Assembly: GCF_009914755.1 (NCBI RefSeq)
Contig: NC_060947.1
Source of the DNA: the human T2T-CHM13v2.0 reference genome, Homo sapiens
Strand: one strand, 5' to 3'
DNA length: 64,000 bases
The notes under the pieces are model-generated. The model made no database searches and was not told the DNA's origin. It saw only the letters and a program-made list of their open reading frames with translations. Of this stretch, positions 43,822 through 62,900 are shown piece after piece. Every line of letters starts with the position of its first letter. The stretch's first letter is position 1. The translations under genes were made by a program, and so were the position numbers.

Positions 43822-45249
43822 CAGCCAGGAGAAAAGTGCCTCTATGTTTTTATTTTTCAAGGGAGTATTCAGTACCTACAAACCCAAGTCAGGAAGCCTG
43901 CTAGTGGCTTTGGTTCTTTCAGAGGCTGCTCGATGCCTTGTGTGTCAGAAAGAAAGATTCAGCAGTTTTGCATCATGGCAAAGAAGCCTGTTATTTTGGG
44001 GCTCAGCCCCTCATTTTATAGAGGATGAAACAGAGGGGGATGGGAGGTCACAAAGACAACTGCCCCGGGAGCAGGTGTGGGGGAGACTTGCCCTGAGGGT
44101 CTAGACTCTCTGCACCACCGTCCTGTCTCCCTTGCTGAAGACCACACATGCCCTTCTTTGACCAGACCCTGCCACCTGATAGGCCAGGACCTGGTAGGCG
44201 GGTACCCAGGTTTCATGGATGGAACCACATCTCCCCAAAAGTGGGGAGGTAGCTACTGGGATGCACGCCTCCCGCCATGTACTATAGGAGAGCAGCTGAA
44301 GCAACAGTTGGGATCAGATGTAGTCACAATTGAATGCATCATCACATTTATCCCTCTAAGTGGCTGGGAGAGTTGATATCCTCATCCCTAAGGTACAAAA
44401 TGTTCCAATTTGATCAGTGGCTTTCAGGAGCTGAGAAAGGCATGTGCTCTGAGGCAGAGCTGTTATGTCCCGCAGAGCCTAAAAATGCTCTAAGAACATG
44501 CTCCCTGCCAAAATTCTCAATGGCTGTGACAAGGGACAACGATCGACCAATGGGGGTGGAAGCAGACCTCCGCAGTCCAGGGGCCAGAGCTAGGACAGAG
44601 GGGTCGGAGAAAGAGTCATTTTCCCAACACTCCAGCTCTTGGCCAGTCCTCACACAGTCCCCTCCTGCTTCCTGCTGAGAGAGATATCCTCATAGGTCTG
44701 GGTAAAGTCCTTCAGTCAGCTTTCATTCCCTGTCACCAACTTTGTCTCTGTTCTCCCTGCCCGTCTCAGGCAGCACTCCTCAGGAAACCTCTCCAAGAGC
44801 CAGCCTCACTGCAGCGCCCACTATTGTCCCTCTGCCTCAAGTGTCCCATCCATGCCAGGCCCCAGGCAGGCTGCAGCTTTCCCTCAGGGCCACACCAAAG
44901 CACTTGGGCTCAGCTGTGCTGTCCCCCTCCATCACTGAGCTCAGGGGCAGCAGGGGTGGGGTGCCAGGAGGCCCATTCACCCTTCTCTGGCTCTGTGTTG
45001 GACCCACCTGCCCAGCCACTGCTGCTTAGAACCTACCCGCTGGGAAAATGAAGCCCTCCCGGAGGGGCCACCTCAACCTGAGAGCCTCACGGATCACAGT
45101 TGTCCCCACTCAGCTCTGCCAGCCCTCAGAGACCCATAGATAAAAGCTGAGCTTGGCTCGCAGAGCTGGTTCCATCTTCCATTCCCAGAGGGTTCAACTT
45201 CCTACCCCAACCACACAGGGAACCTCAAGGCTGAGCCAGTGTGGGCTGC

Positions 45250-47844: not shown

Positions 47845-49092
47845 AGGGGGACAAATGATGTAAACACATCAACAAATAAAACAGTAACAAGTTAAGGTCT
47901 ATGGAAAAAACACAGAAGGGGCAGAGAGAAAGAAAGCAAGAAGGAGAGTCCCAGTTTGCTAGGGCTTGTGGGAAGTGGGGAGCAGTTCTCTTTAGCTAGG
48001 ATATTTGGGAAAGGCATATCTGAAGGAGTGATATTTGAGCTTAGATTAAAAGATGGGAAGGAGCAAGCCATGCAAAGAGCTAGGATGTTCCAAGCAGAGA
48101 CGGAACAGCAAGTGCAAATGTCAGGAGGAATAGAAGGAGGCTGGTGGGTGGGGTCCAGTGAGCAAGAGGAGGGCAGGCAGGAGAGGGGATGGGGAGGTGG
48201 GCAGGCCCAGACCACCCAGGGCCCTGGAGACTATCCTGATCCAACAAGGGAAGCCTTGAGTCACTTCAGTGTCCATGTGGAGAATGGACCTCAGACTGAA
48301 TGAGGGAGGCAGTAAGGAGGGCCTCTACCTCCAGGGCTTCGCCCTGTGGACTGCGCATAGACATCTCCAACTCAGAAAGTCTGAACCAAACTTTCCATAG
48401 TTCCCCCAAGTCTGGGCATCCTCCTACTCAGTGAAAGGCAGCCATCACACCTCCCTGCCCTGCTCCCGGATGCCCCAAATCCTCTTGGTCTCCAAGTCCA
48501 GAACCTGAGACTTGTCCTTGATGTTTGTCTTTCCCTCACCCTTTCTGTATTCTGGGAAGATGGGGTTTTTTCCCCCAGATGAATCTGTAAAACTTCTGTG
48601 ATCACAATAAAAATTCTGGCAGTATTATTTTCTGGAACATGACAAAGTGATTCAAAATTATTTATCTGGAAGACTACAAAACAAGAATAGCCAGGAAATT
48701 TCTAAAAAGAAAGAAGAAGGAGGAGGAGAAAGAAGGAGGAGGAAAAGGAGGAGAAGAAGAAAAGAAAAAGAACCAAGAAAGGGTTCTAGCTCTACCAAAT
48801 ATTAAAACATATCATGAAGCTATTTAAAACAATATGGTTGTGGATACTGAAAAAGATGTGAATAAAGTGGAAGGAAAATAAATAGAAATGCACATGGGGA
48901 TTGAGACTGTGAAAAAGGCAGCATCTCACATCAGTGAGGGATGTTCAACACCTGGTGTTGGGAAAACTGGCTAGTCATTTAAACCAAACAACTGGGTCCT
49001 CTACCTCACTCCTGACATTAAGATACATTTAGATGATTCAAAGAGTAAGACAGAAAAAATAACACGTGAAAACACTATCAGAAAACAACGTG

Positions 49093-49549
<457 letters not shown>

Positions 49550-49679
49550 TCAGAGAAAAAACATTGCAATTCAGGACACACAGAGGCTATTGTTCCTAAT
49601 ATTTAAAAATAAAAGTAGTGGATTGTCTACAAAAAGATGAAGACAAGAATTTCAGAAAACCAAATACTGCATGTTTTCA

Positions 49680-50201
<522 letters not shown>

Positions 50202-50446
50202 CTAAAATAAAAGTTGGAAAAAAATATAGAAATTTTCTTTGTAATAGCCACAAACTGCAAACAGCCCAGGTGTCTATTAGTAGAATGCATAAACAAACTC
50301 GGGCATGTTCATACAATGTAAAACTACTCATCAATAAAAAGTGATACTTCTCAGCAATGAAAAGAAACTAGCTACTGATACCAGCTACAACATGGATGGA
50401 TTTCAAGTGCTTTATGATGAGAGCAAGAAGCCAGACACAAAAGTGT

Positions 50447-51163
50447 CTATATATATATATATACAGTATATATACGTATATACATACGTATATATACTGT
50501 ATATATACACATATATACAGTATATATATACATATACATGTATATATATACTGTATATATACTGTATATATATACACAGTGTATATATACATATATACAG
50601 TGTATATATACTGTATGTATATATACATGTATATATGTATACTGTATATATATACAGTATATATATACATACAGTATATATACTGTATATATACGTATAT
50701 ATACTATATATACATATATACAGTATATATATGTGTATATACAGTATATATGTATACTGTATATACATATATACAGTATATATATACAGTATATATACAG
50801 TATATATACATATATACAGTATATATATACAGTATATATACAGTATATATACATATATACAGTGTATATATATACAGTATATATACTGTATATATACATA
50901 TATACAGTATATATATATACAGTATATATACTGTATATATACATATATACAGTATATATATACAGTGTATATACTGTATATATACACATATATACAGTAT
51001 ATATATACAGTGTATATACTGTATATATACACATATATACAGTATATATATATACAAGTATATACTGTATATATACATATATACAGTATATATGTAAATA
51101 TACATATATACATGTATATATATACACTATATATATACATATATACATGTATATATTTACTAT
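50447..51163. repeat. TA-rich complex simple repeat (TATATACAG/TATATACTG/TATACA units), ~715 bp
   Basis: Directly visible; accounts for the six-frame Tyr/Ile-rich ORFs. Confidence 0.97.
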
Positions 51164-52881
51164 ATGATTCCATTTATATAAAGTGCCAAAACAGTCAAAA
51201 ATAATCTATGTGGAAAAAATCAACAAAGGGATCCTCTGGGTGACAATGGGGTTGACCGGAAAGGGGCTAAAGGGAAGTTTCTGGGGTAATAGTAGGGTCT
51301 ATATCTTGATAGGGTTATGGGCTACCCAGGTGCATGTATGTGTTTGCCAAAACTCAGAGAATGGTTTCCTTAAGAGCTGAGCATCTGCTTGTAAGTAAAT
51401 TTTACCTACAATAGAAAAATCTGAAATGAATATTGAACTCTAGTTAATGATCTGCTGGAGTGCTTAGGGATGAAGTGTACTGATGCCTGCAACTTACTTT
51501 CATTAAATAAACAAAGATGGTTGATGAATGGATAGAGGGATAGGTAGAGAAATAGGTGATAAAGCAAGTAGAGTAACATCTTAATTGTAGACTCTAGGAG
51601 CAGGGTCTATGGGGATCCACTGTACCTTTCTTCACACTGTTCTAAATATTTGGAGATTTTCATAATAAAATATTGGGGGAAGATAATTTTTAAATACAGA
51701 GGTACTTTTCAAGTACAAATCCAGCAATTGGAGGTGGAAGAAAACAGCCAGAGACCAAGTTTGTATTTGGGAGAAGAAAGAGGGATGGCATTTAATTTTC
51801 CTACAACCGCTTTTCTGAAGCCAGTATAACTTAGCATGAAACCAGGGGAAGAATTCAACAGCTACTTGTGAATGGATAGAGGGATAGGTAGATAAATAGA
51901 TGAAATGAAACAACCAAACAGAATAGTTCACCTATTCTGACAACATTTTACAGAAACTGACTCAACCCGTTGTTCAGCTGTTTTGCTCACCTGAATTAAC
52001 CCTGTATTTTTCATATTTTCAAAATTGTTCTGTTTAAAATTGTTTCCATTTTTATCTTCTTAGTTAAATTACCTCAATAAACATTTATTCATTTGTATGT
52101 ACTACATAAGAAACGGAGGCAGAGCTCTTTCAAAACAATAAGAAAAAGATGAATCACCCAATAAGGAGGAAATGAACAAATGACATGAACCATCACTTAA
52201 TAGGAGAAATACAAATTGCCAACGAATCATAGAGGACCTTAAACCTCCCTCATAATGAAAAGAATGCCAGTAAGACCAATGATGCCCTGTCATGTCATTT
52301 CTATCAGATTAGTCCCCAAAGTAACAACTGATAATAGCCAATGTAGATGAAGCATGAGAACACAGGCCCTCCCTCTCCTTCACTGTTGATTGGAGGGCAA
52401 ACACATGTAACTGTTGTAGGGGCAGTCTGGTAATTCTTGGGACACCTACAACTTTGGTGGTTGTGCCTCAGAGTCACCTGTGGAGCTTTTGATAATACAC
52501 CTGCCCTGGGTCCTAACCTCGAAGAGAATCTATTTTTCCCTACTGCCTGTATAATTGCAGTATAATTTTAAGCTCCAGGATAGAGGTAAACTGATTTGGC
52601 TTTTGACATGATAAAAATGTGTTATAGAGAAAACTTGCATGGGCATTCGAAGATGCATGCACAAAGTTGTGGATTACAGCATCGTTTGACCTAGCCAAAA
52701 ATTAGAAAATTCCCATGTCCAAAACAGGGACTGGTTAATGCCATTCAGTGGAGTATTATGCAGCTGTTAAAAAGCATGCAGGACTTACCATGTGTTGGAA
52801 GTCTGGTTTCCACTCCCCAAACTAGGCTGGAATTCTTTCCAGGCCAACCTGTACCAATTTGAGAGCCTCAAGCATCACCTT

Positions 52882-53589
52882 TGTATGAGTCTGTTCTCAC
52901 ATTGCTATAAAGAACTACCTGAGACTGGGTAATTTATGAATAAAAGAGGTTTAATTGACTCACAGTATTCCACAGGCTGTACAGGAAGCATGGCTGGGAG
53001 GCCTCAGAAAACTTACAATCACGGTGGAAGGTGAAGGGGAAGCAAGCACGTCTTATGATGGTGGAGTAGGAGAGAGAGAGCAAAGGGGGAAATGCTACAC
53101 ACTTTCTTTCTTTCTTTCTTTCTTTTTTTTGAGATGGAGTCTCGCTCTTGCTGCTCAGGCTGGAGTGCAATGGCCCCCGATCTCGGCTCACTGCAACCTC
53201 CGCCTCCCGGGTTCAAGCGATTCTCCTGCCTCAGCCTCCCAAGTAGCTGGGATTATGGTGGTGTGCGCCACCATGCCCGGCTAATTTTGTATTTTTAGTA
53301 GAGACGGGGTTTTGCCATGTTGGCCAGGCTGGTTTCAAACCCCTGACCTCATGTGATCTGCCTGCCTCGGCCTCCCAAAGTGCTGGGATTATAGGCATGA
53401 GCCACCACGCCTGGCCCAGTGCCACACACTTTCAAACAACCAGATATCATGAGAACTCACTATCTCGAGAACAGCAAGGGAGAAATCTGCGCCCATATTC
53501 CAATCACTTCCCACCAGGTCCCTCCTACAATATCAGGAATTACAATTCAACATGACATTTGGGTGGGGACACAAAGCCAAACCATATCA
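52882..53589 (-). mobile_element. MST/THE1-family MaLR solo LTR interrupted by an Alu
   Basis: tgtatgagtctgttctcacattgctataaagaactacctgagactgggtaattt...ccaaaccatatca; 5-bp TSD ACCTT (52877-52881 / 53590-53594). Confidence 0.92.
53107..53416 (-). mobile_element. AluS-like element inside the LTR
   Basis: Antisense dimer; TSD tgctacacactttc / tgccacacactttc. Confidence 0.95.
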
Positions 53590-53646
53590 ACCTTCCTGTT
53601 CACATCTAAAGGTCCAAAAGGAGTCTCAGGCTGTGACTGGATCTCC

Positions 53647-54344
53647 ACTGATTCACCACGGAAGCTTAACCCAATCTTGGCTCCTGAATATTCCCAGATA
53701 CCCTCAAAAGAAAACTCTCAGGAAAACACCACACCTCCTCATTCATCCTCCTCAGAAATGCTGAGAGAGGGCCTCAGTAACTTGACCCTCCAACAGAAAG
53801 TCTGTCCCCAGAGCAGGACAGTGAAGATAAAATCCAACAAAAGAGGCCATTAGATGAAACATTGTTACTTTGAATCCTTACTCAGCATTTATATTATCAG
53901 AATCAATTGATATTTAATTTTGAATATCATCATTTTATGAATTGTTCTTTGAACCTTAGAGTGAGGAAACCACCCTCTCATCCTTCCTCCTCAGGAATGC
54001 CAGTTAAGGGCTTCAGTAACTTGACCATCAGCCCTACTACTAACTAACTACAGTTTCCCTGTACTAGAAGAGCTATTTCAACAGCAGGACTTAGAAAAGA
54101 TCCAACGAAAAAGGCAGCAGAAATGGGACTTGCTGTTTCTCCCCAAAAGAGAACTCTGAGGGGGCCTGAGATTTGGAGTTAAAGATTTGTCTTGCTCATA
54201 AGATGGAGATCAGACTGTATACAGGTATGGGTGTCCATATCCCATTGCAAAAATAACTTCCCAGGTACTGAAAATGATGAAGAATCCGCAAGGAGCAACA
54301 AGATGCAGAATTATGCCAAGGAATCTTACTGGCAGCAGGTTTGA
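53647..54344 (+). pseudogene. Decayed intronless DPPA3(STELLA)/FAM156-family pseudogene with two internal repeats
   Basis: Stitched translation: TDSPRKLNPILAPEYSQIPSKENSQENTTPPHSSSSEMLREGLSNLTL / PTESLSPEQDSEDKIQQKR...QNQLIFNFEYHHFMNCSLNLRVRKPPSHPSSSGMPVKGFSNLTISPTTN* / PVLEELFQQQDLEKIQRKRQQKWDLLF...YRYGCPY / ...NYAKES. Matches recalled DPPA3 and FAM156A motifs. No ATG, three frameshifts, several stops. Confidence 0.72.
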
Positions 54345-55070
54345 GTCAACATCAGTGCCAGTACCAAAACTTTCCACTAGCAATCTTAGGATCACTATGG
54401 GGAAAGCTGCTAGGTTTCTGAAATTGAAGCTTTTTCTCTCCTCAGATGTCTTTCTCCCTTCCATGTTATCTACAATTTAAAGTTATCTACAGAGCTCGGA
54501 TGCCTCTTGGATTGTAATGTGCTTTTTTCCATTTCATGGATTGACCATCCTTTGGCACATCACATGTGTATATTCAGATCGTAAACTCAATAATGAGATG
54601 AAACCGAGCATTATGAGTATGAAGCAGAAGATTGTTGGGGCAAAGGGATGTGGAAATCGATGTTAGTGATTTTACACTGTATCGTTAGGTGACACACAAT
54701 TGCAATAAGGTAAATCTTCTGCTCCATACCAGTCATCTTTCCATTTTCAGCACCAAATGGATGTGTTTAAAGGAACGTGTCATTAAAGTTCAGTTTTGCT
54801 AAAAAAGAAAGTGGCGGGAGCCCTGCACACATACCTGAGACCCACCAAAGTGCAAGCCCCCTCCTCCTTGTTGCTTCTCCCTGCCCAGGGTTCCTGCCTT
54901 GCCCACCCCAGCACTCATTGCATTGCTTCAATGTGCTTTTCCAGTGATAAGAAGGAAAGTGGCACTATTGCTTGTTCTCCAAATCATCCCTGAGGCAAGG
55001 GTGCCTGAAGAAGCCAGGCTAGGCTCCTTGCTTGAAGAAATTGGAGGTGAAGATAACGTGGCAAGACACA

Positions 55071-55072
<2 letters not shown>

Positions 55073-55102
<30 letters not shown>
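55073..55102. repeat. (CA)15 microsatellite
   Basis: Directly visible. Confidence 0.97.
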
Positions 55103-55105
<3 letters not shown>

Positions 55106-55959
55106 TGATATCTTTATAAGAGTTCTTGCCACCTGTGGTAACACAGTCTGCCCATCAGGAAGAGGGTACCCAAGGCTGTTACCAGAGGTTGTCCCTGGGT
55201 GGGGGAAGTGGGGTCCCAATTTACTGTCGTGCGTTCCTGAAATTGGGGCACTCTGCCCTTCCCCGCCCCGGCCCTGCACCCAGAAGGTTTTATTTGTCCC
55301 AGAGTTAGCTGACCTGGCCCATATCTGAAAGGAGCCCAGGCTGGGCCTTCATGGGGTTATTGATTTCGGCACAAGGCTTTCCAAATCCCAGACTGCAGGA
55401 GGCTTTTACCTACCCTGACCCCATATGCCTGGCTTCAGCTCCAGCCCACAGGCCACCTCCACAAGGACAGGCCAGGTCCGTTTCTTTCCTTCTAAAGTGG
55501 ATTTTTCTCCTCTCTCCACCTCTCTTCCTCTGTAGGGCCACAGGTGGAGGCTTTCCCATTAGAAGATCTGGGAGCCTTGCCATGACTGCTGAAGCATCTG
55601 CTGGTTTTCTGTAAATTGAAATCTTCTGGCCACTGAAGATGTGAGGCACGTGGCACAAAGCCTTCTGTGGAAATGCAGCACCACACTCAATAATGTGGCC
55701 CACGGTCAGCAACAAATGAGGAAATGTGTGGCCCTTTCAAAGTGTCATGCAGAGCGCTGGCCTGCCCTGCATGCTGCCTGCCCAGAGCCCTGCCTCCTTC
55801 TGAGTGGCTGTGGCTGCAAAGCTCCTTTGGGGACAAAGGGAACAGACTTGGCACACTGGCCACTCTGGCCTGCAGACAGCAATGGGAAGACTCGGCAGAG
55901 ACCCAGCTGCCCCAGGGCCTCATGGGACTTGGATGCAGTCTGTGAGTCAAGGGACAGCA

Positions 55960-56880
55960 CAGGGCAGCTGTTAAGCACTGGAGCTCTGGCACCAGAGCCC
56001 CCGGGGTTCACATTATGGAGCCACCACTTGTTAGCTGTGGGACCTTGGGCAGGTCAGCAAACCACTTAGCCTCTCTGTGCCTCGGTTTCTCCATCTGCCA
56101 AATGGAAATAAAAATAGTATTATCTCATAGGGCTGTCGTGAGGAGTAAAAGAATACCTACATTCTTCAAAGGATTAAGCATAGAATTACCACAGGAGGTT
56201 CCGGAGTATATAGCCCAGAGAAATGAAAATAAATGTCTGCAGAGACATGTGCCGGAATGTTCACAGCAGAATGTTCATAAGAGCCAAAAGGTGGAACCCA
56301 CCCAAATGTCCATCGACCGGTGGCTAAATGAACAAAATGTGGTCTATGCATATAATGGAATATTATTCAGCCATTAAAAGGAAGGAAAATCTGACACATG
56401 CTACAACTTTGATGAACCTCGAAAACGTTATGTTAATTGAAAGAAGCCAGACGTGAAAGTCCACACATTTTCAATTTAATTCATTTGAAAGTCCAGAATA
56501 GGCAAATCCATAGAGACAGAAAGGAGATAAGTGGTTACCAGCGGCTGTGGGGCTTGGAGGTACAGGGAGTGATAGCTAAAGTGTACGGGGTTTCTTTTAA
56601 AGATGACAAAAATGTTCTAAGATTGTGGCGGTGGTTGCACAACTCTGTGAATAGACTAAAGACCATTCAATTGTACACTTCAAATGGGTGAATTGTATGT
56701 TATGTGACTTCTATCTCAACAAAACTGTTTCTAAAAAATGGAAAATGTTATGTTGCTTTAAATAAGCTGATCATCAAAAAAATAAAATGAAAGTCCTTTC
56801 CCATCGAATTACATTTTAAATAGAGGAATCAGTACGTGTAAAGCCTGAAGAACAGTGCTCAATAACACTAGCTGTTCTCC
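55960..56880 (+). mobile_element. MIR split by an old L1 3' fragment (~56160-56790)
   Basis: MIR core to ...gtcgtgagga, then L1 text (ttaagcatagaattacca, aatggaatattattcagccattaaaagg, aattgtacacttcaaatgggtgaatt), then the MIR tail gtaaagc...gtgctcaataa. Confidence 0.8.
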
Positions 56881-58035
56881 TCCCCTGTAACACTCACCAT
56901 TATGTGTTGGGCATGTCGTGCAAGTTCACCCATGAGAGGATGTGAATGCAGAGCCCAGGCACCTGGTTCCCCAGCTCTGGGCATGGCCTGGCGCTGGCTG
57001 GGCTGCAAGGAACAAGGTATCAGATGGGAATCTTGGCTCAGAGGGAGCCCCTGGTTTGAGGGGCAGAGGCCCACAAGAGAAGGGAGGGAAATGTGGGTCA
57101 AGGGAGGTTCACCCGAGCACCTGGTTTAGAAACCTTCTCCACATTGGCTAGCATCGAAACCAACTTTTCTGTGCATAGATGACCACATTGACCTCTTTTC
57201 CCCTTGCTTCCTTCTCCAGCTTTCCAGGACCACACCGAGGTTTGTCTGACCCTGGAAGCAGAACTCCCCAAGAGAAGCTGGAGGCCAATGCCAACCCCTC
57301 TCTGCCTCACCATTTTGTTTCCCAGTGACCATGTCCACCTGGTGATGCAAGCGGGACCCTTTGCAGCGTGAGATCATCTCTTGGGTAAGAAGCAAAACAG
57401 GAATTGAGTAGTTCCTCCCAACTCTGGCTGTCAGTCATATGAAACCTGCCTCCTTAAGCAACAGGTCCATTCCTTCTGGGGTCACCAAGTGCCAAGCAGG
57501 GCTGACAGCATGGCCCTTGCTCTTCATCTTCCACTCCCCTTATCTGTTTCTCAGCTTTTGCCTTCCAGACATGGCCTTCCTGGCACCTTTCCAATAGTCT
57601 GTCCCCACCATGCCCAGGGACAAGCCCCACCACCCTCATGCTGTTTTCAGCATGCTGTTTTCAAATATGAGTTCAATGCTTTCATTAGTTGCCTCTTCTT
57701 TTTCTTCTTCACTGGAATAATTTGTAATTGTAAAAACAAAATGTCCTTCCTTGGGCAAAACGTCCCTCTAAAAATTTATTAATGTGTTTTTCTCATTTGC
57801 ATTTCCTTGTGGGTGATATTCTATCCACAACATTCCAGAGGCAATATCCCCTGAAATCTTCCAAAAATAACTAGAAGACTAATAACAGTTACAGGAAGAA
57901 CATAACAACAAAGATAGAATCAGCTTTTGATACCTAAAATAGGATTTGTGTCCACAACCAGAAAAGAGTCTTGAAAGCTAGGCTTTATCTACAGATAAAA
58001 GATAAAAGGTTTTTCTTCTAAATTCCACTGGTTCC

Positions 58036-58730
58036 TGCAATGGTCAGGTTTATGTGTCACCTGGGCCAGGCTCTAGTCCCTGGTGATTTCATCAAACACC
58101 TGTCTAGGTGTTGCTGTGGAGGCATTTCATAGCTGTGGACTTGAAGTGAAGTAGAGACTCATCCTCGATGATGTGGGTGGGCCTCACACAATCAACTGAG
58201 AGGCCTAAAGAGCAAAGACTGAGGTTTCCCAGAGAAGAGGCAATTCTATCCCAAGACTGCAGTGTCAGCTCCTGCCTGAGTCTTGGGCCTGCTCGCCTGC
58301 CCTCCAGATTTCAGACTTGCCAGCCCCACAGTCACATAAACCAGTTTCTTAAAATCTGTCTATCTACCCATCTATCTCTATATTAATATCTATCTATCTA
58401 ATCTCCAGTTGATTCTATTCTTTTCTTCTGGGGAACTCTGACTGATGAGATAGGATTTATTTAATGCTTCGATCTTGAGGCTGAGTTTCCAGCCTGCCTG
58501 CCTGCAAATATTGAACTTGCCTAGCTAGCAATCACATAAGCCACATCACCCAAAACCAGATAAGCTCTTTCTTGTTTTTATATATATTTAACACATATAT
58601 ACACACACATATATGCATACACATACACATGTGTGTATATGTGTGTGTAATATGTGTGCATGTGTGTATATATATATGTCTGTGTGTGTGTGCGTGTGTG
58701 CTTTTCTCTGGTAGAATCCTGACTGGTACA
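58036..58730 (+). mobile_element. MLT2-family LTR pieces with TA/CA/TG low-complexity sequence
   Basis: ttatgtgtcacctgggccaggct, aagactgaggtttcccagagaagaggcaattct and an end at gaatcctgactggtaca. Confidence 0.8.
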
Positions 58731-59010
58731 TTTCCCATTATCACATCAAGAACCAAGCCTACTTATTTATATGTTAGGGTAGCAGAAACTCAGAATATGA
58801 TGAAAAAGAGGTGGAAAGCACTCCCTTTCTCCCCGTCCCTCCCATGCCACTTCAGGCCAAAGGAATAGTAGCAAAAGGGAAAAGTCCCCTGAAGGCTATA
58901 TGTGGATGAGGTGCACATCAGGAAAGTGGTTTCTTCCATCTGAAAACCTAGGAAGAGCCCTGCTTTTGGCTCGGTGCCATGTCCAGGACTGTGAGGATGT
59001 TAAGGCCCAG

Positions 59011-59427
59011 TGTATTGGTCCATTCTCACACTGCTACAAAGAAATACCTGAGACTGGGTAATTTATCAAGAAAACGGGTCTAATAGGCTCATCGTTCCGC
59101 AGGCCGTACAGGAAGCAGAAGCAGCTCCTGCTTCTGAGGAGACCTCAGGAAACTTACAATCATGACGGAAGGTGAAGGGGAAGCAGGCACATCTTACATG
59201 ACTCGAGCAGGAGCAAGAGAGAGGTAGGGAGGTGCCATACACTTTTAAACAACCAGGTCTTGTGAGAACTCACTTACTATACAGTACCAAGGTGTGGGGA
59301 GGTGACAAAACACTCATGAGAACTCCACCCCCATGATCCAATCACCTGCCACCAGGCCCCACCTCCAACACTGGGTATTACAATTCAACGTGAGATTTGG
59401 ATGAGGACACAGAGCCAAACCATATCA
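59011..59427 (-). mobile_element. MSTA-like MaLR solo LTR
   Basis: tgtattggtccattctcacactgctacaaagaaatacctgagactgggtaattt...agagccaaaccatatca; TSD CCCAG. Confidence 0.92.
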
Positions 59428-59529
59428 CCCAGCAATGGCTGGGGAGGGGCTGCAGAACTAGGTGTGCAGAGAAGCCCCCTGGGGAAGCAGTGCAGGGAAG
59501 GGGCACAATGACATCCAGGTATGACTTTT

Positions 59530-59918
59530 TTAAAAAATTTTATTTATTTTCTTTTTTTTAACTTTTATTTTAAGTTCAGGGGTACATGGGCAAGTTTGTA
59601 ACATAGGTAAACTTGTGTCGTGGGGGTTTGTTGTACAGATAATTTCATCACCCAGGTATTAAGCCTAGTACCCATTAGTTATTTTTCCTGATCCTCTCCC
59701 TCCTCCCACCCTCCACCCTCTGAAACACCCCAGTGTCTGTGGTTCCCCTCTATGGGTCCATGTGTTCTCATCGTTTAGCTCCCATTTATAAGTGAGAACA
59801 CGCGATATTTGGTTTTCTGTTCCTGTGTTAGTTTGCTGAGGATAATGGCCTCCAGCTCCATCCATGTCCCTGCAGAGGACACAATCTCATTCTTTTTTAT
59901 GGCTGCATAGTATTCCAA
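59530..59918 (-). mobile_element. L1P 3' end, 5'-truncated
   Basis: acttttattttaagttcaggggtacatg...tagctcccatttataagtgagaacacg...tttttatggctgcatagtattcca. Confidence 0.92.
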
Positions 59919-62900
59919 GGTGAGACTTTTAAAAGGATACCATGGAATTGTCAGTCAGCTTGATTCCTCCAGCAGAGTAGAGACTCCTGAGCAAGAAGAG
60001 AGCCATCATGGGACATACTGAAGCAAATTTTTTCTTTGTACAGGTGAAGAGTTTCATGGGTGAAAATGTACAATCCCACTTAGATACTTGATATATCACA
60101 GCTACCAAACTCAGAGCCTCATGAGTATATGGTCTTCTTTACTTCTCTTGCTAACACTCAAGGGGCAGTACTATGGTGTCTTTTTCACACAGGAGGAAGT
60201 TGGCACTCAGGGATGCAGATCGGCTTGCCCAAGGTCATGTCACTGATAAAGGTGGAGTAGGCTCCCATCCCCCAACTCTTAACTGCTGGGCAGTTTAGCT
60301 GTGGAATAGCCAAAGACGACACCCAGATCCTCTGCTCCCTGAGGCGTAGGCGCTACCACTCAGGATGTCTACCTCCGGGTGTTGCTCAAGAGGCAGAAGA
60401 GATACAGCTACAATGGTGACCACCACTCCCTCATTTAACGATAAAGAAACTGCAAAATGAAGATGCAGGGCCTCAGCAAGAGGACCTTTACATGATCCAT
60501 GACAGGCAGAGACTGCCCCTCCAAGGGAGGGCAACTTCTCTGCCAGGATGTGCTAGATGGGGAGTCGGCAGAAGCACTGCCAAGTGGTCCACCAAACACG
60601 CTGAGCTGCTGCCAGCCCTTGGCCAGGTCAGTCTCTGCCTTGCTCCACCCTGAGATGAATGAGTAGCATCACTAGGCCTGGACCTTCAGAGGCCAGTGCA
60701 GATCCCACCACAGCCTGCCAGGCCTACTGTAGGGACAGCGTTTCCGGGATCATTAGCGTGGGGCCACCAGCTCAATTGGAAGGGGGCTATACAGAAGGCC
60801 CTCAGTAACTTTGACCTATCAGTGGGACAGCCCCAGTTGTCTGCATTCCCGTAGGAGGCTCCACAGATGGAACACACGATAAAGTGCAGCAGGGACTTTA
60901 CCAAGCCCCAGCAGGCCTACTGGCTCCTTACTGTTAAATGCCCTTGCTCAAGGACATCCCAGTTGGACAGAAACTAAGCTGGTATGCACGACCAGTGTGG
61001 GTGGCTCTTTGACTCCTGTTCTAACCCTAACAGGCAATTCTGATGGTGCCTGGCACGCACCCACACAATCACAGTGCAGTGTGGGGAGCGTGCTCGTAAA
61101 TGACAGTAGAGCAGAATGCTGTCAATCAAAAGGGTCGGCTGCAAACCCAGATAGTAGGCAGCACTAGAACATCAGAAACACTCCAGAAAGTCTCCAAAAA
61201 TGCTTCTTTAAGAAGCAGATGTCTGATTTGCCCACAGAGTGGACTGGACCCCTCTGCGATTCTTCCAGGTCCCATTCCTGAATGCCTGGAAGATATGGTG
61301 GCCACACGCTCCAAACCACCAAAGAGATTTGTGTTCTGCTGGGATGAAGCTATGATGAGGACAAAGGCCTCAAACACTTGATGTTGTATTTTTCATTTTA
61401 ATCATTGCCAACATTTTTAAGCATGTAAAATATCACCTGGAAATTCTGAGTGATTTGCCTTTGGACTAAAGTATGTTTTCCCCTGAATTTTCTCTTGATG
61501 CCAGTCCTAGTGCTTGCTGTTTTCTGTGTGCACACCAGGCACTGGGCCACGCATTTTTAATAAGTGCCTGGTAAGGGGGAGGGGGAACTTAGAATACCTT
61601 GCCCCTCTGCCAGCCTCTTGAAGATCCTCAGAGCAGTTTTTTGATCATGGAGGAGTCCCAGGCTTGGCCTTTCTTAGTTCTGGGAAAGCGAGGGGAGAAT
61701 CCCACAGAGTCTGACAAAGGCTGCCTGTCTTCAAAACTCCTGATGCACAAAGCTGAGCTGGGCTAGGCTGGGCTCCAGGTCCCAAGAGAGAGGCTCATAG
61801 GTGCCAGGGACAAGCCACTCAAGGCTTGGGGAGAGGAGAGAAGTAGAGCCTGGGAACCCAGCAGGGGCAGCCCAGGGAGCATTCCGTAATCTCTCTGGAA
61901 TAACCAGAAACAAGCGTGCAGCCAACTGCGGGGCCCCAAAGTCACATTTTCCAAAACAACATCTTCAAGACAGAAGTGTTTTGGCTACTTCTTGATATTT
62001 TACATCTTCTCTGGTGAACAGAGGCCCTGTGGTCCAGTAGAAAGGCTAGAGACTGGGTTTCAATCACAGTTCAGTCCCTTTCTGGCTACGTGATCCTGGG
62101 CAACTTAAGTGACTCGATCAAGGCTTTCCAACTAGGAAGGATCAATCCAACAAGGAAATGTTTGAAACCAGTGCTCTTAATCATGATCCTACATTGCCAA
62201 GCAGTGACACCAGGCTGCTGTGAATGTCCAGTATCCAACTGTGGAGAAGGAACCACTTCTTACACTACATGCCCAGGTCTGGGCTCCTCATCTGGCCAGT
62301 ATTATCTCATTTAATCCCTCAACAGATCTCATTTTACAGAGGAGACACTGGAGCACAGAGATATTAGGCGAATTGGCAAGGTCACACAGCTGAGAAGGAG
62401 CAGAGCCTGGACTCAAAACTGGATCTATCTGGCTCCAGAGCCTATAAGGCAATAACGATAGAGGAGGTGAAGATACATGCTGTAGGTTTCAGCAAACATT
62501 TGTTCATTTGTTCATTCATTCACTCATCAGCAAAATGAGATTATGGAATCAAAAAAGTGTGAGTGCCTACTCTGTTCCAGGAGCAGAGAACAGGCCCCTG
62601 GAGGTCTCAAAACAGAAGAGGAAAGAAAAAAGAAGGTGATCCCACCAATATCTTGGCAGAAACAGGGAGATGGGGTTCAGAGATTTCTGTAAGACAAGAA
62701 ATTGCTGGCCAGACGTCTCTCTATGGGAGCAACGCAGAGGCCTAGAGAGAAGCTGGTGATATTGGGGCACTGTTATCTTCCTGATCTCAAGTCTTCAAGA
62801 ATAAGCAATAGCAGTGACAGCAAGGCCATCCTCAAACCCCTTGGAAAATAGAAACCCAATATCCCTCATAAATCTACCATTAAGGCACTCAAAAATGAAG

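What the first reader, a model, noticed from the sequence alone, without database searches (positions are those of the whole stretch)
53647..54344. Hidden DPPA3(STELLA)/FAM156-family gene relic about 10 kb downstream of MAMLD1
Seen: a diverged internal duplication (tcctcctcagaaatg...gggcctcagtaacttgacc...agcaggac...atccaacaaaagaggc at ~53720-53850, and tcctcctcaggaatg...gggcttcagtaacttgacc...agcaggac...atccaacgaaaaaggc at ~53960-54120) in sequence that does not look like a known repeat. Stitching frames (shifts near 53790, 54060 and 54242) gives repeat 1 (T)DSPRKLNPILAPEYSQIPSKENSQENTTPPHSSSSEMLREGLSNLTL and repeat 2 PPSHPSSSGMPVKGFSNLTISPTTN*...PVLEELFQQQDLEKIQRKRQQKW. Recalled, not searched: human DPPA3 begins MDPSQFNPTYIPGSPQMLTEENSRDD...SSETLIKNLSNLTI, and X-linked FAM156A has two such repeats (...PHPSSWETLVQGLSGLTLSLGTNQPGPLPEAALQPQETEEKRQRERQQ). 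Eroded versions of the F-x-C-x-C-x-x-C motif follow each repeat (FNFEYHHF, YRYGCPYP), and the end NYAKES resembles mammalian STELLA C-termini. Inference: an ancient intronless copy of this germline/early-embryo family, dead in human (ACT in place of ATG, several stops) and possibly intact in other mammals at the syntenic position. The ORF track shows only its first 48 residues, fused to LTR sequence. I do not know whether it is annotated.
Basis: partly seen in the sequence, partly recalled or inferred. Interest (0 to 1): 0.82.

Follow-up and report, generated by a model that had tools for sequence, protein, structure and literature searches.

The report
Dead STELLA/FAM156-type retrocopy near MAMLD1
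A badly eroded, intronless copy of a STELLA (DPPA3)/FAM156-type germline gene lies between MAMLD1 and MTM1 on the human X chromosome; it is an old dead relic, mainly of interest for how old and how large this gene family is.

Summary
The internal repeat exists (59 nt, 78%). Pfam PGC7_Stella hits both repeats (E 2.2e-7 and 0.028) and none of 148 control ORFs nearby.

The element is larger than reported, window 52825-54811. A DNA profile of DPPA3 processed pseudogenes matches it in four collinear pieces, from 5'UTR to 3'UTR. It crosses the exon 1/2 junction without an intron and ends in an A-rich remnant. An LTR with an Alu inside splits the 5'UTR.

It has the two-unit layout of FAM156A/B and aligns with them in single collinear hits. 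There is no flank homology. A 5'-truncated sister copy lies on chr11 (68% identity, E 3e-91).

Most likely it is a very old retrocopy of a two-unit FAM156-type transcript, itself derived from DPPA3 mRNA. It is dead in human: ACT replaces ATG, and there are several frameshifts and stops.

A single duplication shared with FAM156 is the best tree, but the alternative is not rejected. Whether the locus was ever an active gene, or is intact in other mammals, could not be tested. It is a new member of a known kind.

The parts
52825..52881 (+). 5' end of the retrocopy: the part derived from the DPPA3-type 5'UTR, cut off from the rest by the LTR insertion
   Evidence: nhmmer: DPPA3-retrocopy profile positions 17-72 match 52828-52885, E 4.8e-4. 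FAM156-type profile positions 22-81 match 52825-52884, E 0.012. BLASTN also hits the stretch just 5' of the coding part in several DPPA3 retrocopies.
52882..53589 (-). Later insertion: a solo LTR (MaLR THE1/MST-like; that label is recalled, not tested) carrying an Alu at about 53104-53420. It is flanked by the 5-bp target-site duplication ACCTT (52877-52881 and 53590-53594).
   Evidence: The TG...CA ends and the ACCTT duplication are read directly. Both arms and the Alu have copies in unrelated loci. The hub table marks 52885-53056 and 53062-53491 as masked. The two profile matches overlap at model positions 66-72, as a target-site duplication predicts.
53590..53718 (+). The rest of the 5'UTR, then the exon-1-derived N-terminal coding part. 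ACT at 53647-49 stands in place of the ATG.
   Evidence: nhmmer 53593-53791 matches DPPA3 profile 66-265, E 4.9e-20. 53590-53851 matches FAM156-type profile 74-363, 89.2 bits, E 6.9e-28. Pfam PGC7_Stella profile positions 2-50 match residues 84-132 of ORF 53401-53850.
53719..53957 (+). Unit A, the first repeat. It holds the SSS..GLSNLTL motif, then a frameshift near 53790 (about 28 nt missing relative to FAM156-type copies), then a shortened and eroded distal part that ends in the remnant of the CxCxxC region (about 53897-53936).
   Evidence: repeat. (alignment and deletion). Stops TAG 53851-53 and TGA 53871-73. The unit tree pairs it with chr11 unit A at 100/97.
53958..54260 (+). Unit B, the second repeat. 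It holds HPSSS..GFSNLTI, EKIQRKRQQ and the second eroded CxCxxC region (YRYGCPYP).
   Evidence: nhmmer 53974-54125 matches DPPA3 profile 209-355, E 5e-10. 53939-54412 matches FAM156-type profile 538-1011, 74.6 bits, E 1.7e-23. Pfam profile 30-52, E 0.028. Stops TAA 54045-47 and TGA 54157-59. The unit tree pairs it with chr11 unit B at 99/97.
54261..54432 (+). The end of the coding-like part (..PGTEN..ARSNKMQNYAKES) and the start of the 3'UTR-derived part. It aligns with FAM156-type, chr11 and chr10 copies, but not with the profile of younger DPPA3 retrocopies.
   Evidence: BLASTN 54294-54409 matches L018.
54433..54800 (+). 3'UTR-derived part, running to the DPPA3-type polyadenylation region
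   Evidence: nhmmer 54433-54792 matches DPPA3 profile 729-1109 of 1132, E 2.6e-7. 54434-54661 matches the FAM156-type profile, E 4.4e-6. 54431-54700 matches the chrX:51.6 Mb copy, E 1e-11.
54801..54811 (+). A-rich remnant (aaaaaagaaag) at the place where a poly(A) tail would be
   Evidence: Read. It lies directly after the end of the profile match.

Best explanation
Window 52825-54811 (T2T chrX:148,790,825-148,792,811, + strand) is a very old processed, mRNA-derived copy of a STELLA-family transcript of the two-unit FAM156 type.

**Inferred chain of events**
1. A spliced DPPA3-type mRNA was retroposed.
2. That retrocopy, or its transcript lineage, acquired a tandem duplication. The duplicated stretch runs from the last few codons of exon 1 to just past the CxCxxC motif.
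3. Transcripts with that two-unit layout were retroposed again. The copies seen in human are FAM156A/B, a chrX:51.6 Mb pseudogene, an open frame at chrX:54.39 Mb, this Xq28 copy, a 5'-truncated chr11 copy, and a chr10 copy that holds only one unit.

The Xq28 copy then decayed. Its start codon is now ACT, it has at least four stops and several frameshifts, and about 115 nt are missing from unit A. An LTR landed in its 5'UTR and an Alu landed in the LTR. In human it makes no STELLA-like protein.

**Shown:** homology to the family, lack of an intron, UTR content, the two units, decay, the later insertions, and the chr11 sister copy.

**Inferred:** that the duplication is the same event as in FAM156, the order of events, and the age (roughly at or before the radiation of placental mammals).
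For: **Family**
- Pfam PGC7_Stella scores E 2.2e-7 (31.5 bits) on unit A and E 0.028 on unit B.
- Of 150 stop-to-stop ORFs of at least 45 aa in 48975-62742, only these 2 hit that family. The best other hit has E 0.0093. The 150 were taken from 228 such ORFs beyond position 44000, out of 733 in the window.
- In a whole-genome scan with PF15549 this locus ranks 25th of 39 matches, E 3.1e-4.

**Retrocopy**
- A profile of 12 DPPA3 processed pseudogenes gives four collinear + strand matches and nothing else in 64 kb below E 1. They cover model positions 17-72, 66-265, 209-355 and 729-1109 of 1132.
- Exon 2 of the DPPA3 gene starts at model position 201, so the 66-265 match crosses that junction with no intron.
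- An A-rich remnant lies at 54801-54811.
- Two kb of flank on each side of FAM156 and of the chrX:51.6 Mb copy find nothing beside the relic.

**FAM156 type**
- FAM156 and the chrX:51.6 Mb copy show the same doubled profile region.
- A profile built from those two alone scores higher than the DPPA3 profile: 89.2 and 74.6 bits against 63.4 and 30.2.
- Each body aligns to the relic across both units in one collinear hit, E 2e-27 and 6e-35.
- In the register fixed by unit B, similarity to FAM156 continues upstream of unit B: 23 of 45 bases. That is the best of 1389 registers, binomial p 4e-5.
- The best unit tree puts all A units together (76/79) and all B units together (68/80).

**Sister copy**
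- chr11:111.66 Mb aligns to 53771-54747 in one hit: 297 bits, E 3e-91, 637/935 identical. The hit includes the stretch between the repeats.
- The two are each other's only other long DNA match in the genome.

**Not a repeat family**
- A genome BLAST of 53591-54812 finds itself, the chr11 copy and one DPPA3 retrocopy.
Against: - The Pfam score is 0.8 bits under the curated cut-off of 32.3.
- tblastn with present-day human DPPA3 and FAM156A proteins is not significant. E is 0.025 and 0.06-0.2 against the window alone. At genome size there is no DPPA3 hit and E is 50 for FAM156A, and 79 other window hits have E<10.
- No target-site duplication was found around the element. The flanks share no exact word of 6 nt or more.
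- The A-rich tail is only 11 nt.

**The shared duplication is not proven**
- On its own, the stretch between the repeats (53850-53963) is not significantly similar to the matching FAM156 stretch (118 of 3000 shuffles reach the score) or the chrX:51.6 Mb stretch (not significant).
- The in-register signal fades to 15/30 (p 0.002), and to nothing further upstream.
- The AU test does not reject independent duplications (p 0.125 and 0.415).
- Pairwise distances over the repeat do not pair relic unit A with FAM156 unit A.
- The single-unit chr10 copy groups inside the duplicated set (94/96; AU p 0.049 against placing it outside). This needs either a loss of one unit or two separate gains.

The copies also share nearly the same 5' end as DPPA3 mRNA. 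That is odd if a retrogene with its own promoter was the source.
Confidence: 0.8

Rival explanations
1. Former working gene (a unitary pseudogene). On this reading the Xq28 locus was for a time an expressed two-unit STELLA-family retrogene. Its transcripts gave rise to the chr11 and chr10 copies. It then died in the line leading to human and may still be intact in some mammals. This adds a history to the best explanation rather than contradicting it.
For: - The chr11 copy is 5'-truncated, which is typical of retroposition, and carries the same two-unit layout. So a two-unit transcript of this lineage was present in the germline.
- (relic, chr11) share an exclusive branch of 0.13 at 100/99. With the chr10 copy they share a further 0.089 at 94/96, apart from FAM156 and the chrX:51.6 Mb copy. 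That means a source lineage distinct from today's FAM156.
- The Xq28 copy is the only full-length member of that lineage.
Against: - The same tree is expected if all three are dead-on-arrival copies of a third source that has since been lost or changed.
- The relic's end branch (0.24) is no shorter than that of chr11 (0.20), so there is no sign of past constraint.
- RefSeq lists no gene or pseudogene here (hub table).
- No expression data or data from other species could be consulted.
Confidence: 0.3
2. An independent old DPPA3 processed pseudogene. On this reading a DPPA3 mRNA was retroposed to a source locus or to Xq28, and a tandem duplication arose in this lineage (relic plus chr11) separately from the one in FAM156. 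The likeness to FAM156 would be convergent, perhaps helped by the similar short ENS/SEN motifs at the two breakpoints.
For: - The AU test does not reject trees with relic/chr11 units A+B as one clade (p 0.125) or FAM156/chrX:51.6 Mb units A+B as one clade (p 0.415).
- The unit lengths differ: 239 nt here against 354 nt in FAM156.
- The single-unit chr10 copy sits between the two duplicated groups.
- Within the relic, units A and B are as alike (78% over 59 nt) as either is to a FAM156 unit (72-77%).
Against: - The best tree groups A units with A units and B units with B units across loci.
- Unit B starts at the same point in both, within about 10 nt, and in-register similarity continues upstream of it.
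- The best hits of a relic+chr11 profile of the stretch between the repeats fall on the CxCxxC region of FAM156 (E 0.049, opposite strand, at a palindromic GAATCGATTC) and of the chrX:54.39 Mb copy (E 0.4). That is where a shared junction predicts them, but the hits are weak.
- None of the younger DPPA3 retrocopies aligned here (11 in the tree) shows any duplication.
Confidence: 0.15
3. A chance resemblance, or part of a known repeat or transposable element.
For: - tblastn with present-day proteins is not significant.
- The coding-like part is serine-rich and of low complexity.
Against: - Four collinear DNA-profile matches with E as low as 5e-20, and nothing else in the window below E 1.
- A 297-bit match to one other locus.
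- Only two other genomic matches.
- Pfam hits only these 2 of 150 ORFs.
- The stretch is not masked in the hub table.
Confidence: 0.01

Closest known systems
FAM156A/FAM156B (chrX:52.19 and 52.23 Mb in T2T).
   Same: - Intronless, with 5'UTR-, coding- and 3'UTR-like parts collinear with DPPA3 mRNA.
- Two tandem units, each with the S-rich ...LSxLT motif and the EK.Q..RQQ stretch.
- Unit B starts at the same point.
- Aligns to the relic in one collinear hit of 85 bits.
- X-linked.
   Different: - FAM156A/B keeps an open 213-aa frame with an intact CxCxxC motif. The relic has no ATG, has stops and frameshifts, and its motif is eroded.
- The unit is 354 nt there against 239 nt here.
- Identity is only 57.5% (601/1046).
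- There is no flank homology.
- In the tree the relic belongs to a different branch of the old group.
DPPA3 / STELLA / PGC7 (chr12:7.73 Mb, four exons)
   Same: - The ultimate parent sequence: the 5'UTR, the N-terminus (MDPSQ..NP.. against TDSPRKLNP..), the LSNLT motif and the 3'UTR are all homologous.
- Same Pfam family.
   Different: - DPPA3 has introns and a single unit.
- K2P distance to the relic is about 0.64 over model positions 67-265, far more than for the older ordinary DPPA3 retrocopies (0.26-0.33).
- The middle of the DPPA3 profile (positions 355-729) does not align to the relic.
Ordinary DPPA3 processed pseudogenes (for example L004-L009, L011-L015, L019, L026-L028)
   Same: The same mechanism (retroposition) and the same mRNA ends.
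   Different: - They have a single unit, are 70-92% identical to a young retrocopy used as an mRNA proxy, and are found by BLAST.
- The relic is much older, has two units, and is separated from them by a branch of about 0.41 at 100/100.
chr11:111,663,302-111,664,460 copy (L035 positions 4303 to about 5460), not named by any tool here
   Same: - The relic's closest relative: 68.1% identity over 935 aligned bases, with the same junction and the same stretch between the repeats.
- The two are each other's only other long DNA match in the genome.
   Different: It is 5'-truncated, starting inside unit A after the LSNLT motif, and it is autosomal.

Membership tests
Pfam PGC7_Stella (PF15549) | HMM score at or above the curated cut-off (32.3 bits) | tested here: inconclusive
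   31.5 bits, E 2.2e-7, with PF15549.11, which is 0.8 bits short. The protein database's precomputed column lists PF15549.12 for the same window ORF. The genome-wide E is 3.1e-4. This is a broken fragment, so the cut-off for whole proteins is a harsh test.
Pfam PGC7_Stella (PF15549) | Specificity: the hit is not background for this kind of sequence | tested here: met
   2 of 150 neighbouring ORFs hit the family, and they are the two repeats. The best other family has E 0.0093.
Pfam PGC7_Stella (PF15549) | C-terminal CxCxxC motif and an intact reading frame | tested here: not met
   FAM156 and the chrX:54.39 Mb copy have F.C.C..C. At those places the relic reads LIFNFEYH and YRYGCPYP. There are four stops and no ATG. 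It is filed as a pseudogene of the family, not as a member protein.
Processed pseudogene / retrocopy | Collinear with the spliced mRNA across an exon junction, with no intron | tested here: met
   The exon 1/2 junction lies at model position 200/201. The relic match 66-265 is continuous across it. The exon 2/3 and 3/4 junctions lie in the part that aligns only to other intronless copies.
Processed pseudogene / retrocopy | Carries 5'UTR and 3'UTR and ends at the poly(A) site with an A tail | tested here: met
   Model positions 17-72 and 729-1109 of 1132 are matched. The A-rich stretch at 54801-54811 is short, so this part is weak.
Processed pseudogene / retrocopy | Flanking target-site duplication | tested here: not met
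   52775-52835 and 54795-54860 share no exact word of 6 nt or more. Loss is expected at this age, so this says little.
Processed pseudogene / retrocopy | No homology to relatives beyond the mRNA-derived body | tested here: met
   Two kb on each side of FAM156 and of the chrX:51.6 Mb copy give no hit next to the relic, only LTR and Alu hits.
FAM156-type (two-unit) subfamily | Two tandem units of the exon-2-to-CxCxxC region, collinear with FAM156 | tested here: met
   Single collinear hits across both units.
FAM156-type (two-unit) subfamily | The same duplication event (shared junction; A units grouping with A units and B with B) | tested here: inconclusive
   For: 23/45 in register, p 4e-5. The best tree groups A units at 76/79 and B units at 68/80. 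The weak hits fall in the expected place. Against: the junction-flanking stretch is not significant on its own, and the AU test does not reject independent duplications.
Known transposable element / repeat family | Many dispersed copies in the genome | tested here: not met
   A genome BLAST of 53591-54812 finds 2 other places. No repeat library (Dfam/RepeatMasker) was available.

The most novel reading that the evidence does not exclude
The Xq28 element may be the corpse of a once-active, X-linked, two-unit STELLA-family gene. It would have seeded the chr11 and chr10 copies and could still be open in some mammals.

The family may also be older than is thought. The five old human copies sit about 0.35-0.46 substitutions per site from their common node, against 0.10-0.18 for the older ordinary DPPA3 retrocopies. 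Taken at face value, that puts a DPPA3-type mRNA well before the boreoeutherian radiation. This is at odds with the report that DPPA3 orthologues occur only in Boreoeutheria (PMC7686362, passages read).
Probability: 0.25. Interest if true: 0.6.

Novelty: new member of a known kind. Interest (0 to 1): 0.4.

Why it matters
In itself this is a dead pseudogene with no expected function. It matters in three ways.

1. **It escapes ordinary searches.** Protein-based pseudogene searches would miss it: tblastn with today's proteins is not significant at genome scale. RefSeq lists nothing here.

2. **It clarifies what FAM156A/B is.** Together with the chr11, chr10, chrX:51.6 Mb and chrX:54.39 Mb copies, it shows FAM156A/B to be the surviving member of an old subfamily. 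That subfamily is mostly X-linked, is derived from DPPA3 mRNA, and carries an internal duplication. No paper in the searched library names FAM156A together with DPPA3 or with 'retrogene'. Pfam already places both in one family.

3. **It bears on when STELLA arose.** STELLA is held to have enabled global DNA demethylation in placental embryos (PMC7686362 and PMC12221971, passages read). Dating these old copies by their presence or absence across mammals would give an independent lower bound on the gene's age.

Tried and rejected
- **The search for homologous proteins** with the relic ORF returned only the window's own ORF. That database evidently holds no mammalian relatives.
- **tblastn** with human DPPA3, FAM156A and the read-through chrX:51.6 Mb frame gave only weak hits amid 79 background hits. 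Only the conceptual protein of the old retrocopy L008 was significant (E 2.7e-10).
- **Stand-alone tests of the stretch between the repeats** (53850-53963) were not significant.
  - Local alignment with +2/-3 scoring found only a 12-mer: 24 of 2000 shuffles reach the score for FAM156, and the chrX:51.6 Mb stretch is not significant.
  - With +1/-1 scoring, 118 of 3000 shuffles reach the score for FAM156. The chrX:51.6 Mb stretch, the relic's own post-unit-B stretch and its exon-1 part are all not significant.
  - nhmmer with the 100-nt FAM156 pre-junction stretch against the whole window did not find the relic.
- **Pairwise K2P distances** on the profile alignment showed no A-to-A or B-to-B pairing between the relic and FAM156.
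- **AU tests** could not settle shared against independent duplication.
- **Flank homology** was sought by BLASTN and nhmmer, with none found.
- **Target-site duplication of the retrocopy:** none found.
- **Dating from the LTR** was not attempted. It would need a consensus of a retrovirus-like element, and no repeat library is held.
- **Codon-position or dN/dS tests for past constraint** were considered and dropped. About 300 alignable coding bases at 68% identity give too little power.
Full report

Yes. The repeat finder reports 53732-53790 against 53971-54029: 59 nt, 78% identity, spacing 239. A self-BLAST of 53591-54900 gives E 5.3e-9 for this pair. It adds a second block, 53825-53847 against 54093-54115, at 83%. 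All the stitched peptides are present in stop-to-stop frames.

**2. Family**

Pfam PGC7_Stella (PF15549) matches residues 84-132 of the frame 53401-53850 to profile positions 2-50. The score is E 2.2e-7 and 31.5 bits, against a cut-off of 32.3. It matches the frame 53874-54044 to profile positions 30-52 at E 0.028.

As a control I scanned 150 stop-to-stop ORFs of at least 45 aa across 48975-62742. These came from 228 such ORFs beyond position 44000, out of 733 in the window. Only those two ORFs hit the family, and the best other hit had E 0.0093.

The window's genome is held. A six-frame scan of it with PF15549 gave 39 matches, and this locus ranks 25th with a genome-wide E of 3.1e-4.
- The top matches are two inverted copies at chrX:52.19 and 52.23 Mb (261.8 bits).
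- There is a broken copy at chrX:51.6 Mb.
- There are many intronless DPPA3 copies.
- The exons of DPPA3 itself appear on chr12.

**3. The element is a full-length intronless copy of an mRNA**

A young retrocopy (L004) aligns to the chr12 gene in four exons. A DNA profile of 12 DPPA3 retrocopies (1132 positions) was run against the whole window. It gave four collinear + strand matches and nothing else below E 1:

| Window | Model positions | E-value |
|---|---|---|
| 52828-52885 | 17-72 | 4.8e-4 |
| 53593-53791 | 66-265 | 4.9e-20 |
| 53974-54125 | 209-355 | 5e-10 |
| 54433-54792 | 729-1109 | 2.6e-7 |

Exon 2 starts at model position 201. The second match therefore crosses the exon 1/2 junction with no intron.

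The first two pieces are separated by 52882-53589. This block has TG...CA ends and a 5-bp ACCTT target-site duplication, and it has an Alu inside. Its arms recur in unrelated loci. I take it to be a solo MaLR-type LTR; that label is recalled, not tested.

An A-rich remnant at 54801-54811 follows the end of the profile match. No target-site duplication of the retrocopy itself was found.

**4. It has the FAM156 layout**

The same profile matches FAM156 at positions 26-376, then again at 204-330, then at 740-975. It matches the chrX:51.6 Mb copy at 18-337, 228-334 and 720-960. So these are also DPPA3-mRNA-derived and carry an internal duplication.

A profile built from those two loci alone fits the relic better than the DPPA3 profile does:

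| Window | FAM156-type profile positions | Score |
|---|---|---|
| 53590-53851 | 74-363 | 89.2 bits, E 6.9e-28 |
| 53939-54412 | 538-1011 | 74.6 bits, E 1.7e-23 |
| 54434-54661 | 1336-1589 | E 4.4e-6 |

The second match starts about 30 nt upstream of unit B. It runs about 290 nt beyond the point where the DPPA3 profile stops.

As single sequences, the FAM156 body aligns to 53594-54687 in one hit (E 2e-27; 601/1046 identical). The chrX:51.6 Mb body aligns to 53590-54413 (E 6e-35; 475/784 identical). Two kb of flank on either side of each gives nothing next to the relic. The homology is therefore confined to the mRNA-like body, which points to retroposition rather than segmental duplication.

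**5. More relatives**

- **chr11.** A genome BLAST of the relic's DNA found only itself, chr11:111.66 Mb (68% identity, E 1e-48) and one DPPA3 retrocopy. So the relic is not a repeat family. The chr11 locus aligns to 53771-54747 in one hit: 297 bits, E 3e-91, 637/935 identical. The hit covers the end of unit A, the stretch between the repeats, unit B and the 3'UTR. The chr11 copy is 5'-truncated. The search in the other direction finds only the relic.
- **chr10.** The chr10:77.04 Mb copy (L018) has the exon-1 part joined directly to a unit-B-like stretch. Relative to the relic it lacks exactly one unit.
- **chrX:54.39 Mb.** This locus (L010) has an open 147-aa frame with an intact F.C.C..C motif, the junction and unit B. 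It aligns to the window from 53958, E 1e-9.

**6. Trees**

*Unit B to the 3' end (17 rows, 947 columns):*
- (relic, chr11) 100/99
- with the chr10 copy, 94/96
- (FAM156, chrX:51.6 Mb) 86/86
- these five against DPPA3 plus eleven younger retrocopies, 100/100, across a branch of about 0.41

Holding the chr10 copy outside the four duplicated loci costs 7.7 log-likelihood units (AU p 0.049).

*Single units (18 rows, 383 columns):*
- relic A with chr11 A, 100/97
- relic B with chr11 B, 99/97
- FAM156 A with chrX:51.6 Mb A, 99/96
- FAM156 B with chrX:51.6 Mb B, 99/95
- all A units together, 76/79
- all B units together, 68/80

So the duplication clearly predates the relic-chr11 split. A single duplication shared with FAM156 is the best tree. 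Independent duplications are not rejected, however (AU p 0.125 and 0.415).

**7. Junction tests**

Evidence for a shared junction:
- In the register fixed by unit B, the 45 nt at 53925-53969 match FAM156 at 23 positions. This is the best of 1389 registers, binomial p 4e-5.
- For 53928-53957 the count is 15 of 30 (p 0.002), and the signal fades further upstream.
- A profile of the stretch between the repeats, built from relic plus chr11, has its best hits on the CxCxxC region of FAM156 (E 0.049, opposite strand, at a palindromic GAATCGATTC) and of L010 (E 0.4). These are in the right place but weak.

Evidence against, or neutral:
- Taken alone, the stretch between the repeats is not significant.

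I put the shared duplication at about 0.8.

**8. State and age**

The copy is dead in human.
- ACT stands at the ATG position.
- The stops are TAG at 53851, TGA at 53871, TAA at 54045 and TGA at 54157.
- The homologous reading changes frame near 53790, 54050 and 54240.
- About 28 nt, and about 115 nt in all, are missing from unit A relative to FAM156-type copies.

K2P distances over model positions 67-265:

| Pair | K2P distance |
|---|---|
| relic to FAM156 | 0.58 |
| relic to chrX:51.6 Mb copy | 0.52 |
| relic to chr10 copy | 0.45 |
| relic to DPPA3 | 0.64 |
| older ordinary DPPA3 retrocopies to DPPA3 | 0.26-0.33 |

The relic and the chr11 copy differ at 32% of aligned sites. With usual human-lineage neutral rates (my own knowledge, rough) that puts their split around the placental radiation, and the base of the old group earlier still. 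Alignment error inflates such numbers.

**9. What is known**

- RefSeq lists nothing here (hub table). GENCODE could not be checked.
- No paper in the searched library holds both FAM156A and DPPA3, or both FAM156A and retrogene.
- A search for DPPA3 pseudogene names found 6 papers, 5 of them listed. I saw only that listing, and no listed title or abstract start concerns this locus.
- Passages of PMC7686362 and PMC12221971 state that DPPA3 orthologues were found only in Boreoeutheria, and that the gene arose after the split of marsupials and placentals.
- Passages of PMC11523738 show that the name Tmem29/FAM156 is used confusingly in mouse. They give no domain assignment.
- Supplements were not consulted.

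**10. Verdict**

The element is an old, unannotated (in RefSeq), dead retrocopy of the two-unit FAM156 branch of the STELLA family. Whether it ever worked as a gene is open. It is a new member of a known kind, of moderate interest.

Noticed in passing
L035 4303 to about 5460 (= G000 chr11:111,663,302-111,664,460, + strand): A 5'-truncated two-unit copy that is the relic's closest relative (68.1% over 935 nt, E 3e-91). An A-rich stretch lies near L035 5440-5460. In the whole-genome Pfam scan it scored only E 3.05.
   Followed up: yes
L010 1393-1836, minus strand (= chrX:54,394,760-54,395,203): An open 147-aa frame with no stops. It holds an intact F.C.C..C motif, the unit A/unit B junction and unit B of the FAM156 type (Pfam profile positions 73-163, 68.8 bits). 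The sequence just upstream looks like a polypyrimidine tract, so it may be an exon of a gene. Its nearest DNA relative is the chrX:51.6 Mb copy. I could not tell which annotated gene it belongs to.
   Followed up: partly
L018 / L034 (chr10:77.04 Mb, minus strand): An old STELLA-family retrocopy that groups with the relic and the chr11 copy but has one unit only. Either it lost a unit by recombination between the repeats, or it predates a second, independent duplication.
   Followed up: partly
L001/L002 (chrX:52.19 and 52.23 Mb) and L003 (chrX:51.6 Mb): The FAM156A/B coding exon is collinear with DPPA3 mRNA, including 5'UTR- and 3'UTR-like parts (profile positions 26-376, 204-330, 740-975). That makes it a retrogene derived from DPPA3 with an internal 354-nt duplication. 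L003 is a broken paralogue with one TAG within the Pfam-matched stretch; further stops follow downstream in that frame. No paper in the searched library links the two gene names.
   Followed up: partly
Tree (human genome loci L001-L035): The five old copies lie 0.35-0.46 substitutions per site from their common node, and a branch of about 0.41 separates them from DPPA3 and its ordinary retrocopies. This depth is hard to square with a boreoeutherian-only origin of DPPA3, unless alignment error or fast evolution accounts for it.
   Followed up: no
window 50338-51205: Long stop-free frames in all six reading frames (up to 288 aa), in a stretch the hub table marks as masked (50423-51187). It is probably a tandem or low-complexity repeat. 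No Pfam hit.
   Followed up: no
window 55071-55100: A (CA)n microsatellite starts about 260 nt downstream of the retrocopy's end.
   Followed up: no
L020, L021 (chr14:13.4 and 13.6 Mb) and L022 (chr22:16.4 Mb): Three near-identical 5' fragments of DPPA3 retrocopies (profile positions 2-257, about 76% identical to L004). They lie near the start of two acrocentric chromosomes, presumably spread by segmental duplication.
   Followed up: no
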